Shown piece by piece: positions 59,441 through 63,252 of a stretch of DNA of 64,000 nucleotides. The DNA is from Escherichia coli phage Shin27. The first letter of the stretch is position 1; each line of letters opens with the position of its first letter. A program made the position numbers and the translations under genes. The stretch lies in sequence record LC788709.1; one strand, given 5' to 3'. The notes beneath the pieces were generated by a model. That model did no database searches. It was not told the DNA's origin and worked only from the letters and a program-made list of their open reading frames with translations.

Positions 59441-59521
59441 TGGTAGGGATGGAGGGACTCGAACCCACACCCGAAGACTAGAACCTAAATCTAGCGCGTC
59501 TGCCAATTTCGCCACATCCCC
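59441..59521 (-). tRNA. tRNA-Leu (UAG)
   Basis: 81 nt. Acceptor GGGGATG/CATCCCT, D region GCG-AAATTGGCAGA-CGC, arm CTAGA-TTTAGGT-TCTAG, T-loop TTCGAGT, CCA encoded. Confidence 0.75.
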
Positions 59522-60666: not shown

Positions 60667-60744
60667 TGGTGGATTGCCTGGGATTCGAACCCAGAACTGA
60701 CGGATTAAAGGTCCGCTACTCTTATCCGGTTGAGCTAGCAATCC
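60667..60744 (-). tRNA. tRNA-Lys (UUU) with C at position 33
   Basis: Perfect acceptor GGATTGC/GCAATCC, arm GCGGA-CCTTTAA-TCCGT, T-arm CTGGG-TTCGAAT-CCCAG, CCA encoded. Confidence 0.75.
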
Positions 60745-63066: not shown

Positions 63067-63169
63067 ATCTATTTCCTCAGTTGTTAATGAAAAATGGTAT
63101 CTGTGACTGAATTCGATATCAGCAATGATAGCTGGTTGGCTACCGGTTTACTTAACTCTACACAGAATA

Positions 63170-63252
63170 TGGCGGGCCGTGTAGGATTCGAACCTACGTT
63201 GTCTTTCGACATGGATTAACAGTCCACCGCCAAACCGCTTGGCTAACGACCC
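63170..63252 (-). tRNA. tRNA with Asn anticodon (GUU) and a 13-nt hairpin variable arm
   Basis: 83 nt. Acceptor GGGTCGT/ACGGCCC, D-stem GCCA/TGGC, arm GTGGA-CTGTTAA-TCCAT, variable GTC-GAAA-GAC-AAC, T-arm GTAGG-TTCGAAT-CCTAC, CCA encoded. Confidence 0.7.

What the first reader, a model, noticed from the sequence alone, without database searches (positions are those of the whole stretch)
63170..63252. Asn-anticodon tRNA with a type-II style hairpin variable arm
Seen: the anticodon arm GTGGA-CTGTTAA-TCCAT is Asn-like (GUU), but 13 nt (GTC-GAAA-GAC-AAC) lie between it and the T-arm, giving 83 nt. The D-stem is 4 bp, as in type I. Established: in bacteria long variable arms are restricted to Leu, Ser and Tyr (and Sec), and tRNA-Tyr differs from this loop by one base (GUA versus GUU). 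Inference: this could be an Asn tRNA with a novel extra arm (possibly an anti-determinant against a nuclease), or a Tyr-derived tRNA whose anticodon changed. The charging identity is uncertain.
Basis: partly seen in the sequence, partly recalled or inferred. Interest (0 to 1): 0.5.

Follow-up and report, generated by a model that had tools for sequence, protein, structure and literature searches.

The report
Phage asparagine tRNA with extra arm
This T5-like phage encodes an asparagine tRNA with an extra hairpin arm that cellular asparagine tRNAs lack; the same design recurs in hundreds of unrelated phages but almost never in bacterial chromosomes, so it is probably a selected viral adaptation, perhaps to escape host enzymes that destroy tRNA.

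Summary
Window 63170-63252 (minus strand) is an 83-nt tRNA with anticodon GUU, a 4-bp D stem and a 13-nt variable region that forms a 3-bp hairpin with a GAAA loop (ARAGORN; Rfam 59 bits; MFE fold).

It is not a one-off. About 170 distinct long-arm tRNA-Asn sequences came from viral contigs. That is roughly 12% of viral tRNA-Asn matching one anticodon-arm/T-arm pattern, and about 23% in tRNA-cluster loci. A scan of 185,579 prokaryotic species genomes gave only 44 stretches. About 10 of these lie in phage-like tRNA arrays, and many are not intact tRNAs.

The extra stem shows strong compensatory covariation. The family keeps asparagine identity: GUU, G73 in 158/169 and never A73. Phage tRNA-Tyr has A73 in 91/91. 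A Tyr-charged tRNA with a changed anticodon is therefore not supported.

T5 itself carries an ordinary 78-nt tRNA-Asn at this locus. In enterobacterial phages of four families, the long-arm versions keep an E. coli-like anticodon arm.

Best reading: an AsnRS-charged tRNA whose extra arm is under selection. I infer, without a test, that it shields the tRNA from host tRNA-cutting defence nucleases. AriB and P2-OLD are shown to cut E. coli tRNA-Asn. I found no prior description.

The parts
63170..63252 (-). tRNA-Asn(GUU) gene, 83 nt, with an extra variable-arm hairpin
   Evidence: ARAGORN. Rfam RF00005, 59 bits. The MFE fold is a cloverleaf plus an extra hairpin. Annotated tRNA-Asn in identical phage records.
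63246..63252 (-). Acceptor stem, 5' strand GGGUCGU (G1-C72, G2-C71, G3-C70, U4-G69, C5-G68, G6-C67, U7-A66)
   Evidence: Sequence; Rfam alignment; MFE fold.
63229..63243 (-). D arm: 4-bp stem GCCA/UGGC with 7-nt loop AGCGGUU. It is class-I-like (A13-U22 paired, A9 upstream) and has C16.
   Evidence: Sequence; Rfam alignment.
63211..63227 (-). Anticodon arm GUGGA-CUGUUAA-UCCAU. The anticodon GUU is at 63218-63220. U28-A42 replaces the C28-G42 of E. coli asnT. The U36-A-A-U-C-C41 sequence is the same as in E. coli.
   Evidence: alignment with E. coli asnT.
63198..63210 (-). Variable region, 13 nt: hairpin GUC-GAAA-GAC (63201-63210) followed by the unpaired tail AAC (63198-63200; the last C is position 48)
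   Evidence: Treated as an insertion relative to the Rfam tRNA model. Forms a hairpin in the MFE fold. The homologous stem covaries in 36 diverse homologues.
63181..63197 (-). T arm GUAGG-UUCGAAU-CCUAC
63170..63180 (-). Acceptor stem 3' strand ACGGCCC (63174-63180), discriminator G73 (63173) and encoded CCA (63170-63172)
   Evidence: Sequence. G73 is part of the bacterial Asn identity set (PMC9976931).
63260..63335 (-). tRNA-Cys(GCA), 7 nt upstream of tRNA-Asn. It is the conserved left anchor of the locus in T5-like phages.

Best explanation
This is a genuine elongator tRNA gene that reads the asparagine codons AAC/AAU. It carries the bacterial asparagine identity set (G34-U35-U36 plus discriminator G73), so host asparaginyl-tRNA synthetase most likely charges it with asparagine. 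On this body sits an extra variable-arm hairpin: a 3-bp stem, a GAAA tetraloop and a 3-nt tail.

The arm defines a large family of tRNA-Asn genes that is essentially restricted to viruses and mobile elements. It is maintained by compensatory substitutions, so selection acts on the hairpin itself.

[quoted passage not shown] This makes the phage tRNA-Asn structurally unlike the host's. Host tRNA-targeting immune nucleases would then fail to dock or cut, while AsnRS, EF-Tu and the ribosome still accept the tRNA. The Toprim nucleases AriB of PARIS and P2-OLD are shown experimentally to cut E. coli tRNA-Asn(GUU) in the anticodon stem. The phage would thereby keep decoding Asn codons after the host tRNA-Asn pool is destroyed.

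In this window's allele, a C28-G42 to U28-A42 change additionally removes both CNG motifs that P2-OLD uses.

My sub-confidences are: real Asn-decoding tRNA, about 0.9; arm under selection, about 0.9; arm acts as a nuclease shield, about 0.35-0.4.
For: The tRNA is real: ARAGORN and Rfam at 59 bits and the MFE fold. It is at least 99% identical in 207 phage records, whereas the 301-nt region with flanks is at least 99% identical in only 69.

Asn identity: GUU plus G73 are the E. coli AsnRS determinants and can be transplanted onto another tRNA body (PMC9976931). Of 169 distinct long-arm homologues, 158 have G73, 11 have U73 and none has A73. Their 1-72 and 2-71 pairs match short-arm phage tRNA-Asn, not Tyr (A73 in 91/91), Leu (A73 in 125/126) or Ser (G2-C71 in 128/136; A3-U70 in 112/136; 5-7 bp arm).

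The arm is selected. V-stem pairs show GC/AU/UA and CG/GC/UA/AU exchanges with 0-1 unpaired cells among 36 sequences. 65% of the loops are GNRA.

It is virus-restricted. In an unbiased scan, 14 of 120 hits were long-arm. 185,579 species genomes gave only 44 stretches, of which about 10 lie in arrays of 7-36 tRNAs and many are not intact tRNAs. Long-arm loci are tRNA clusters, with a median of 10.5 tRNAs.

Link to defence. AriB cuts E. coli tRNA-Asn between positions 40 and 41, and T5 tRNA-Lys, -Thr and -Asn together neutralise PARIS (PMC12409363). P2-OLD also cleaves tRNA-Asn, at CNG motifs (PMC12445682).

A natural graft experiment points the same way. Enterobacterial phages of four families keep an anticodon arm identical or nearly identical to E. 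coli asnT and differ mainly by the inserted hairpin. The T5 allele instead rewrites the anticodon arm.

Extra arms also occur in phage tRNA-Thr(UGU), the prime AriB/OLD target. They co-occur with long-arm Asn (odds ratio 3.3, p = 1e-4).
Against: No experiment bears on this allele.

- The tRNA-Asn shown to help against PARIS is T5's type I allele, not the long-arm one.
- The window tRNA keeps the AriB site sequence UAAUC|C.
- Bas34 encodes its own tRNA-Asn yet still needed T5 tRNA-Asn to escape PARIS. I could not determine which allele Bas34 has.
- A variable arm is not protective in itself, since class II tRNA-Tyr is the target of retron-Eco7 PtuAB.
- Extra arms also appear in isotypes not known to be nuclease targets, such as Cys, Trp and Ile.
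- 43 of 203 long-arm loci also carry a short-arm tRNA-Asn.
- Charging by AsnRS despite the arm is inferred from identity elements only.
- The counts come from pattern-limited, row-capped scans, and the sequences are not phylogenetically independent.
Confidence: 0.45

Rival explanations
1. The arm is a positive element for something other than immune evasion. It could be a binding or recognition site for a phage or host factor. It could be a processing aid for RNase P or RNase E on the polycistronic tRNA precursors. It could also be a folding or stability module: a GNRA-capped mini-helix that stabilises the core of a tRNA made in bulk and possibly under-modified late in infection.
For: GNRA tetraloops, which are classic stabilising and tertiary-contact motifs, cap 65% of the arms, against 5% in phage tRNA-Tyr. 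About half of the family also remodels the core towards class II (13-22 unpaired in 51% against 18%; A9 in 43% against 79%), which points to an integrated structural solution. Extra arms also appear in isotypes with no known nuclease.
Against: No partner protein or shared neighbouring gene was identified. Cellular tRNA-Asn needs no such arm. The restriction to viruses and the co-occurrence across isotypes in the same phages are not explained by stability alone. T5 relatives exchange long-arm and type I alleles at the same locus, so the arm is not required for local processing.
Confidence: 0.2
2. The arm is an evolutionary leftover. The family would descend from a class II tRNA, most plausibly tRNA-Tyr, through A36-to-U and A73-to-G changes. 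The arm would be tolerated but serve no purpose.
For: The arm geometry (3-4 bp stem, 0-1 nt 5' flank, 3-4 nt 3' tail) is closest to phage tRNA-Tyr. A subfamily has a Tyr-like 3-bp CCC/GGG D stem with a GAG... loop. GUA and GUU differ by one base. Long-arm sequences mostly have long-arm nearest neighbours (151/169).
Against: Compensatory changes preserve the stem across very divergent lineages. The window tRNA is no closer to the phage or E. coli tRNA-Tyr than to unrelated tRNAs (56/83 against 54-57/83). Several enterobacterial-phage members have D and anticodon arms nearly identical to E. coli tRNA-Asn, which looks like an insertion into an Asn body. A useless 10-nt hairpin should be lost quickly from streamlined phage genomes. 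Similar arms recur in Thr, Cys, Trp and other isotypes.
Confidence: 0.15
3. Deliberate mischarging. The long arm would recruit a class II-tRNA synthetase (SerRS is the only one compatible with G73), so the tRNA would insert Ser at Asn codons. This is how allo-tRNAs and nematode nev-tRNAs follow their arm rather than their anticodon.
For: The window tRNA has G73, G1-C72, G2-C71 and C11-G24, all of which tRNA-Ser also has. Precedents exist for V-arm tRNAs with class I anticodons (from my own knowledge: Mukai 2017; Hamashima 2012).
Against: GUU plus G73 is the full AsnRS identity set. The arm is 3 bp with a 3-nt 3' tail, whereas phage tRNA-Ser has 5-7 bp and a 1-nt tail. The window tRNA has G3-C70, whereas 112 of 136 phage tRNA-Ser have A3-U70. 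About 40% of the family have C2-G71, which the review lists as a SerRS antideterminant. Proteome-wide Asn-to-Ser substitution would be costly.
Confidence: 0.04
4. Selection acts at the DNA level. The divergent tRNA-Asn alleles, including the inserted hairpin, would exist because they destroy recognition sites for the homing endonucleases that populate T5-like tRNA regions. Allele turnover would then reflect phage-against-phage gene conversion rather than tRNA function.
For: HNH/homing endonuclease genes flank tRNA genes in this region. At least three alleles occupy the same locus between the conserved tRNA-Cys and the downstream ORF. T5 has an ORF inserted there and S114 has about 150 extra nt.
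Against: This does not explain why the insertion is always a base-paired hairpin at the variable position, with RNA-level covariation and GNRA loops. It also does not explain why the same architecture occurs in unrelated phage families and environments.
Confidence: 0.06

Closest known systems
Bacterial tRNA-Asn (e.g. E. coli asnT, 76 nt)
   Same: Both have anticodon loop CUGUUAA, discriminator G73 and a T loop of the UUCGA type. The anticodon arm differs at only one base pair (U28-A42 in place of C28-G42). Related phage members have an identical anticodon arm.
   Different: The variable region is 13 nt with a hairpin, instead of the 5-nt AUGUC. The first pair is G1-C72 instead of U1-A72. The D arm has a different sequence (GCCAAGCGGUUUGGC), with C16.
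Bacterial/phage class II tRNA-Tyr
   Same: Both have a short (3-bp) variable-arm hairpin followed by a 3-nt tail. Their anticodons differ by one base (GUA against GUU). The total length is similar.
   Different: The discriminator is G73, not A73 (A73 in 91/91 phage tRNA-Tyr). The window tRNA has a 4-bp D stem with A9. The loop is GNRA (5% in Tyr). There is no special sequence similarity to the phage's own tRNA-Tyr or to E. coli tRNA-Tyr.
Phage T5 tRNA-Asn(GUU) (T5t17), one of three T5 tRNAs that together neutralise PARIS/AriB (PMC12409363)
   Same: It occupies the same genomic slot, between tRNA-Cys and the rna3/T5.068-like region. It has the same anticodon, G73 and G1-C72, and belongs to the same phage family.
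   Different: T5's is a 78-nt type I tRNA with a 5-nt variable loop and a rewritten anticodon stem (GCAUC/GUUGA; AriB site UAAGU|U). The window tRNA keeps the host-like stem-loop and adds an arm instead. In the phage record collection the T5 allele occurs in 134 records and the window allele (at least 90% identity) in 284.
V-arm tRNAs with class I anticodons: allo-tRNAs (bacterial metagenomes) and nev-tRNAs (nematodes). This comparison rests on my own knowledge, not on a test here.
   Same: They combine a long variable arm with an anticodon that normally belongs to a class I tRNA.
   Different: Those tRNAs follow the arm's identity (Ser or Leu). They have 8/4 or 9/3 acceptor/T stems (allo-tRNAs) or A73 (nev-tRNAs). 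The tRNA here has a standard 7/5 cloverleaf and retains the identity set that matches its anticodon (Asn).

Membership tests
tRNA (Rfam RF00005), elongator tRNA-Asn | Cloverleaf with conserved tertiary nucleotides (U8, A14, G18G19, U33, G53-U54-U55-C56, A58, C61) | tested here: met
   ARAGORN. Rfam 59 bits against a gathering score of 29, with all 71 model positions matched. MFE cloverleaf.
tRNA (Rfam RF00005), elongator tRNA-Asn | Anticodon GUU in a 7-nt loop, plus discriminator G73 (the bacterial AsnRS identity set) | tested here: met
   Sequence; identity rule from PMC9976931. G73 is present in 158/169 family members.
tRNA (Rfam RF00005), elongator tRNA-Asn | Short (4-5 nt) variable loop, as in all cellular tRNA-Asn | tested here: not met
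   The variable region is 13 nt with a hairpin. E. coli asnT has 5 nt.
tRNA (Rfam RF00005), elongator tRNA-Asn | Aminoacylated with asparagine in vivo | not testable with these tools
   This needs AsnRS charging assays or charged-tRNA sequencing.
Class II (long variable arm) tRNAs: Leu, Ser, Tyr, Sec | Variable region longer than 10 nt that forms a stem-loop | tested here: met
   13 nt, GUC-GAAA-GAC hairpin. The stem covaries in homologues.
Class II (long variable arm) tRNAs: Leu, Ser, Tyr, Sec | Class II core: 3-bp D stem (13-22 unpaired), usually a non-A purine at position 9 | tested here: not met
   The window tRNA has A13-U22 paired and A9. About half of the wider long-arm Asn family does have the class II-type core.
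Class II (long variable arm) tRNAs: Leu, Ser, Tyr, Sec | Identity elements of Tyr or Leu (A73), or of Ser (G2-C71, A3-U70, 5-7 bp arm with a 1-nt 3' flank) | tested here: not met
   The window tRNA has G73, G3-C70, a 3-bp arm and a 3-nt flank.
allo-tRNA / nev-tRNA (arm-directed recoding tRNAs) | Non-canonical 8/4 or 9/3 acceptor/T stems (allo-tRNA) or Leu identity with A73 (nev-tRNA) | tested here: not met
   The window tRNA has a standard 7-bp acceptor stem, a 5-bp T stem and G73.
Phage tRNA variants that resist host tRNA-targeting nucleases | Isoacceptor of a tRNA that a defence nuclease cleaves | tested here: met
   AriB and P2-OLD cleave E. coli tRNA-Asn(GUU) (PMC12409363 and PMC12445682).
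Phage tRNA variants that resist host tRNA-targeting nucleases | Sequence or structure change at the nuclease recognition or cleavage site | tested here: inconclusive
   Both CNG motifs used by P2-OLD are lost (UGG/CCA against CGG/CCG in asnT), and position 16 is C instead of U. However, the AriB site UAAUC|C is retained. Whether the arm blocks docking is unknown.
Phage tRNA variants that resist host tRNA-targeting nucleases | Demonstrated resistance to cleavage, or rescue of infection | not testable with these tools
   The only experimental data are for the T5 type I allele.

The most novel reading that the evidence does not exclude
Phages systematically change the architecture of their tRNAs, not just anticodon-loop bases, as a structural countermeasure to tRNA-targeting immunity. 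They add a class II-style arm to tRNAs that are class I in all cells. Asn is the most frequent case, followed by Thr(UGU), Cys, Ile, Trp, Met and Glu. They also shorten the arm of tRNA-Leu. Host nucleases that read tRNA shape would then fail on these tRNAs, while synthetases that read the anticodon and discriminator still work. The window tRNA would be the enterobacterial T5-like example of this general strategy.
Probability: 0.3. Interest if true: 0.85.

Novelty: new variant of a known kind. Interest (0 to 1): 0.65.

Why it matters
Textbook tRNA biology restricts long variable arms in bacteria to Leu, Ser, Tyr and Sec. Here an Asn tRNA with such an arm turns out to be common and conserved in phages and nearly absent from cellular genomes. 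That makes it a clean marker of a virus-specific selective pressure on tRNA shape.

It links to the current work on tRNA-cleaving defence systems (PARIS/AriB, OLD, PrrC, retron-PtuAB) and the phage tRNAs that counter them. Resistance has so far been explained only by point substitutions near the cleavage site.

The hypothesis can be tested directly. Natural allele pairs exist at one locus in T5-like phages (type I against long-arm). Natural grafts also exist, with an E. coli-like anticodon arm plus the hairpin.

If AsnRS tolerates the arm, these tRNAs also tell us about synthetase-tRNA docking. They could serve as nuclease-resistant or orthogonal scaffolds.

Tried and rejected
1. A blastn search of the tRNA against 5,426 E. 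coli genomes gave only one chance-level hit, to a plasmid tRNA-Lys. It was uninformative about origin.

2. I made global pairwise alignments to E. coli asnT, tyrT and tyrV, to T5 and TrudiRoth tRNA-Tyr, and to all other tRNAs of the phage. All fell between 46 and 57 identities out of 83, with no clear parent. A recent duplication of the phage's tRNA-Tyr is rejected, but deep ancestry stays unresolved.

3. A nearest-neighbour analysis with the arm removed gave 151/169 long-to-long and 18/169 long-to-short pairs. It cannot separate a few ancient gains from many gains.

4. I tried to find out which tRNA-Asn allele BASEL phage Bas34 carries, because Bas34 is PARIS-sensitive despite encoding a tRNA-Asn. 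The paper's supplements are not held and the BASEL paper does not name Bas34. I only established that Bas27 and Bas30 carry the long-arm allele and Bas31 the T5 allele.

5. The promoter/terminator scan around the gene found nothing above the shuffled expectation. The one 'terminator' is the T arm read on the opposite strand.

6. Nine literature look-ups for a prior description of long-arm tRNA-Asn in phages found none. The library holds open-access papers only, so absence is not proof.

7. I considered an isotype-specific profile comparison and dropped it. The homologues were collected with a pattern containing the Asn anticodon arm, which would bias any such score. I used identity-element statistics instead.

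8. A YqeY/GatB-like protein in the T5-like tRNA region was checked as a possible partner. It gave only a weak sub-threshold Pfam hit in TrudiRoth and none in T5.
Full report
**1. The observation**

The window is a T5-like phage (Demerecviridae, Epseptimavirus). The 301 bases around the feature are 100% identical to Salmonella phages bux and Sepoy and to Escherichia phage TrudiRoth/Bas30. ARAGORN finds 21 tRNA genes on the minus strand between 56821 and 63335. One of them is tRNA-Asn(GTT) at exactly 63170-63252, 83 nt.

Rfam's tRNA model scores the feature at 59 bits (gathering score 29, E = 1e-12). All 71 model positions match, and 10 extra nucleotides are placed in the variable region.

The RNA is GGGUCGU UA GCCA AGCGGUU UGGC G GUGGA CUGUUAA UCCAU GUCGAAAGACAAC GUAGG UUCGAAU CCUAC ACGGCCC G CCA. 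The unconstrained MFE and centroid structures are the cloverleaf plus a GUC-GAAA-GAC hairpin (-30.5 kcal/mol, z = -2.3). The discriminator is G73 and CCA is encoded.

**2. It is a family, not an oddity**

A blastn search of the 83 nt against 50,697 phage records found 650 records.
- 284 records match at 90% identity or more. Those listed at this level are T5-like phages of about 104-120 kb.
- Full-length matches of 84-86 nt at 77-88% identity occur in T4-like Klebsiella, Enterobacter, Serratia, Cronobacter and Aeromonas phages.
- Partial matches that still span the long variable region occur in Phapecoctavirus and in Pseudomonas jumbo phages.

I then scanned IMG/VR for GGACTGTTAATCC, a 14-40 nt gap, and GGTTCRANYC. 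The gap length excludes normal variable loops. ARAGORN called all of the hits tRNA-Asn(GTT), and they gave 86 distinct sequences from contigs of 4 to 434 kb.

A relaxed scan, free in the anticodon stem, again hit the limit. It added about 80 more distinct sequences with many different anticodon stems.

An unbiased scan with a gap of 8-38 nt returned 106 short-loop and 14 long-arm loci, so about 12% are long-arm. If only loci with at least 5 tRNAs are counted, the figure is about 11 of 48, or roughly 23%. This assumes the 14 reused loci are L004-L017.

The picture in cellular genomes is very different. The long-gap pattern found only 44 stretches in one genome each of 185,579 bacterial and archaeal species.
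- About 10 lie in arrays of 7-36 tRNAs, for example in Micromonospora and Verrucosispora and on MAG contigs.
- About 8 are lone genes on MAG or short contigs.
- The rest are att-site duplications, repeat elements or tRNA-like fragments.

Long-arm loci in viral contigs are tRNA clusters. They have a median of 10.5 tRNAs per fetched stretch and only 1 of 120 is a lone tRNA. Short-loop loci have a median of 3, and 35 of 106 are lone.

**3. The arm is selected**

In a MAFFT alignment of 36 diverse members, the three core pairs of the extra stem exchange freely. One pair is GC 19, AU 9, UA 8. The next is CG 11, GC 10, UA 10, AU 4, UG 1. The third is CG 25, AU 5, GC 1. Only 0-1 cells are unpaired, which is comparable to the canonical stems. 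Overall pairing is 93.7%, against 63.6% in shuffles and 33-47% when the partners are slid by 1-3 columns.

Across 169 distinct long-arm sequences, the variable region is mostly 13-17 nt, with a 3-4 bp stem, a 0-1 nt 5' flank and a 3-4 nt 3' tail. The loop is GNRA in 99 of the 152 members with a predicted V hairpin (65%), mostly GAAA.

**4. Which amino acid?**

Bacterial asparagine identity rests on the three anticodon bases and G73, and it can be transplanted onto another tRNA body (PMC9976931). The window tRNA has both elements.

Family statistics agree. The discriminator is G in 158 and U in 11 of 169, and never A. The 1-72 pair is U-A in 110 and G-C in 55. These distributions match short-loop phage tRNA-Asn (G73 in 120 of 131; U-A 93, G-C 28).

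Phage tRNAs of the three class II isotypes, taken from the same loci, differ clearly:
- tRNA-Tyr has A73 in 91 of 91.
- tRNA-Leu has A73 in 125 of 126.
- tRNA-Ser has G2-C71 in 128 of 136, A3-U70 in 112 of 136, a 5-7 bp arm and a 1-nt 3' flank.

The same review lists G73 as an antideterminant against TyrRS and LeuRS, and C2-G71 as one against SerRS. I therefore read the tRNA as Asn-accepting.

The window tRNA shares G1-C72, G2-C71, C11-G24 and G73 with tRNA-Ser, so residual SerRS charging cannot be excluded from sequence alone. Its 3-bp arm, its Tyr-like flank geometry and its G3-C70 pair argue against it.

E. coli and Salmonella have AsnRS. G1-C72 is an antideterminant for the amidotransferase route, so direct charging is the expected route.

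**5. Origin**

The window tRNA is no closer to the phage's own tRNA-Tyr or to E. coli tRNA-Tyr than to E. coli tRNA-Asn or unrelated phage tRNAs. The phage tRNA-Tyr is 91 nt and lies about 1.1 kb upstream, outside the window. All comparisons fall at 46-57 identities out of 83.

Members from a Phapecoctavirus and from a 147-kb contig have D and anticodon arms almost identical to E. coli asnT, with the hairpin in place of AUGUC. This looks like an insertion into an Asn body. Another subfamily has a Tyr-like 3-bp CCC/GGG D stem.

About half of the family has class II-type core features. Positions 13-22 are unpaired in 51% against 18% of short-loop Asn, and position 9 is A in 43% against 79%. The window tRNA keeps the class I core.

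Nearest-neighbour analysis with the arm removed is mostly long-to-long (151 of 169) with some long-to-short links up to 89% identity. The origin therefore remains unresolved.

**6. The locus in T5 relatives**

T5 itself carries a 78-nt type I tRNA-Asn of different sequence in the same slot. Its anticodon stem is rewritten to GCAUC/GUUGA. That allele occurs in 134 phage records.

Salmonella phage S114 carries an 86-nt variant of the window scaffold. Its arm is different but still base-paired (UCC-GCAA-GGA), and its anticodon arm is almost identical to that of E. coli.

Among BASEL phages, Bas27 and Bas30 have the long-arm allele and Bas31 has the T5 allele. The tRNA-Cys gene upstream and the ORF downstream are conserved, while the Asn gene is exchanged.

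**7. Mechanism**

The following points are shown by others.
[quoted passage not shown] It cuts between positions 40 and 41.
- AriB also reads the D loop, since a U16-to-C change impairs cleavage.
- T5 tRNA-Lys, -Thr and -Asn together are needed to neutralise PARIS (PMC12409363).
[quoted passage not shown] It cleaves tRNA-Asn among other tRNAs (PMC12445682).

Neither paper mentions the variable region.

The following points are shown here.
- The window tRNA has U28-A42, which removes both CNG motifs.
- It has C16.
- It keeps the AriB site UAAUC|C.
- Its relatives in enterobacterial phages keep the entire host anticodon arm and differ from the host mainly by the hairpin.
- Extra arms also occur in phage tRNA-Thr(UGU), including some in T5-like contigs, and in other isotypes.
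- These arms co-occur with long-arm Asn: 60 of 721 against 11 of 409, odds ratio 3.3, p = 1e-4.

This step is untested, and several observations weaken it.
- The experimentally protective T5 tRNA-Asn is the type I allele.
- Bas34 was not protected by its own tRNA-Asn, and its allele is unknown.
- Class II tRNA-Tyr is itself a nuclease target.
- Arms occur in isotypes with no known nuclease.
- 43 of 203 long-arm loci also carry a short-loop Asn.

**8. Comparison and novelty**

The gene is already annotated as tRNA-Asn in hundreds of GenBank records, once as 'tRNA-Asx' and sometimes only as a hypothetical protein. Its existence is therefore not new.

What I could not find described in the searchable open-access library is threefold: the class II-like architecture, its wide and virus-restricted distribution, and its contrast with the T5 allele.

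The tRNA meets the definition of a tRNA and has the Asn identity set. It fails the short-variable-loop feature of all cellular tRNA-Asn. It also fails the identity and core features of Tyr, Leu and Ser class II tRNAs, and those of allo-tRNAs and nev-tRNAs. I file it as a new variant of a known kind.

**9. Caveats**

- The family was collected with sequence patterns that fix the anticodon loop and T loop, in scans capped at 120 rows of unknown order.
- 'Viral contigs' may include some host DNA.
- Distinct sequences are not independent lineages.
- My parsing of variable regions relies on ARAGORN anticodon positions and a T-arm motif.
- Charging, expression and nuclease resistance are all inferred.

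Noticed in passing
L013:4406-4492, L074:8998-9084 (T5-like contigs); other loci listed: Extra variable-arm hairpins, often GNRA-capped, also occur in phage tRNAs of other class I isotypes. Counts of distinct sequences with a long arm are Thr(UGU) 12/84, Cys 8/49, Ile(UAU) 12/73 and Trp 6/50, plus some Met, Glu, Asp, Ala and Pro. They are about 3 times more frequent in loci that also hold a long-arm tRNA-Asn (p = 1e-4). All 19 long-arm tRNA-Thr have a 3-bp D stem and no A9.
   Followed up: partly
window 59441-59521 (-); viral loci: The converse also occurs. 86 of 212 distinct phage tRNA-Leu have a short (4-7 nt) variable loop. The window's tRNA-Leu(UAG) is 81 nt, with only a 9-nt variable region (UCUUCGGGU), whereas T5's is 85 nt.
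   Followed up: partly
window 60667-60744 (-): tRNA-Lys(UUU) has the anticodon loop CCUUUAA, that is C33 in place of the near-universal U33. Positions 36-41 read UAAUCC, which differs both from E. coli (UAAUCA) and from the T5 tRNA-Lys described in the PARIS papers (UAAACC). This is a possible anticodon-nuclease escape variant.
   Followed up: no
window 63090-63169 (-): Directly downstream of tRNA-Asn lies a roughly 75-nt element that ends in ACCA. It has a 6-bp terminal stem and a T-arm-like hairpin (MFE -16.9 kcal/mol, z = -2.3). It is homologous to T5 'RNA3, putative tRNA-like RNA'. It is conserved between T5 and this phage although the adjacent tRNA-Asn alleles differ, and it is absent in phage S114.
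   Followed up: partly
L140:5498-5799 (three tandem copies); L127, L133, L139, L143, L155, L161, L162: Saprospiraceae and other Bacteroidota MAGs carry repeated tRNA-Asn-derived units. A 22-23-nt palindrome (e.g. UAUCCCGAUAGCUAUCGGGAAA) sits at the variable position. ARAGORN does not call them tRNAs, and a normal 75-nt tRNA-Asn lies nearby. They may be a mobile insertion or an integration-site repeat.
   Followed up: no
L138:3185-3228, L146:4924-4966, L147:5578-5621, L158:967-1011: Alphaproteobacterial MAGs hold a conserved tRNA-like element with an Asn-type anticodon arm, a GCGGGCGAAAGCCC-type variable hairpin and a T arm. It has no convincing acceptor stem.
   Followed up: no
L126:2316-2373, L134:1268-1325: Rhodobacterales (Stagnihabitans, Cypionkella) have a tRNA-Asn-like gene with a variable arm of about 30 nt (7-bp G/C stem). 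ARAGORN misses it. Its acceptor stem, G73 and CCA look intact.
   Followed up: no
L129, L131, L137, L164: Micromonospora and Verrucosispora chromosomes carry arrays of 23-36 tRNA genes within 8 kb. Each array includes an 89-90-nt long-arm tRNA-Asn, and the arrays are syntenic between species.
   Followed up: partly
L001:657-1100 (TrudiRoth, outside the window); L124:21618-22052 (T5.081): A small protein in the T5-like tRNA region is annotated 'tRNA amidotransferase' in T5 and 'recombination-related exonuclease' in TrudiRoth. It gives only a weak YqeY/GatB-tail Pfam hit in TrudiRoth (25.6 bits, below the 27-bit cut-off) and none in T5.
   Followed up: partly
window about 63084-63212 (-), corresponding to L001:9189-9317: Several GenBank records annotate a 'hypothetical protein' CDS that overlaps the 3' half of this tRNA, or annotate only hypothetical proteins or nothing where the tRNA lies. 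These are probably spurious or incomplete annotations.
   Followed up: no
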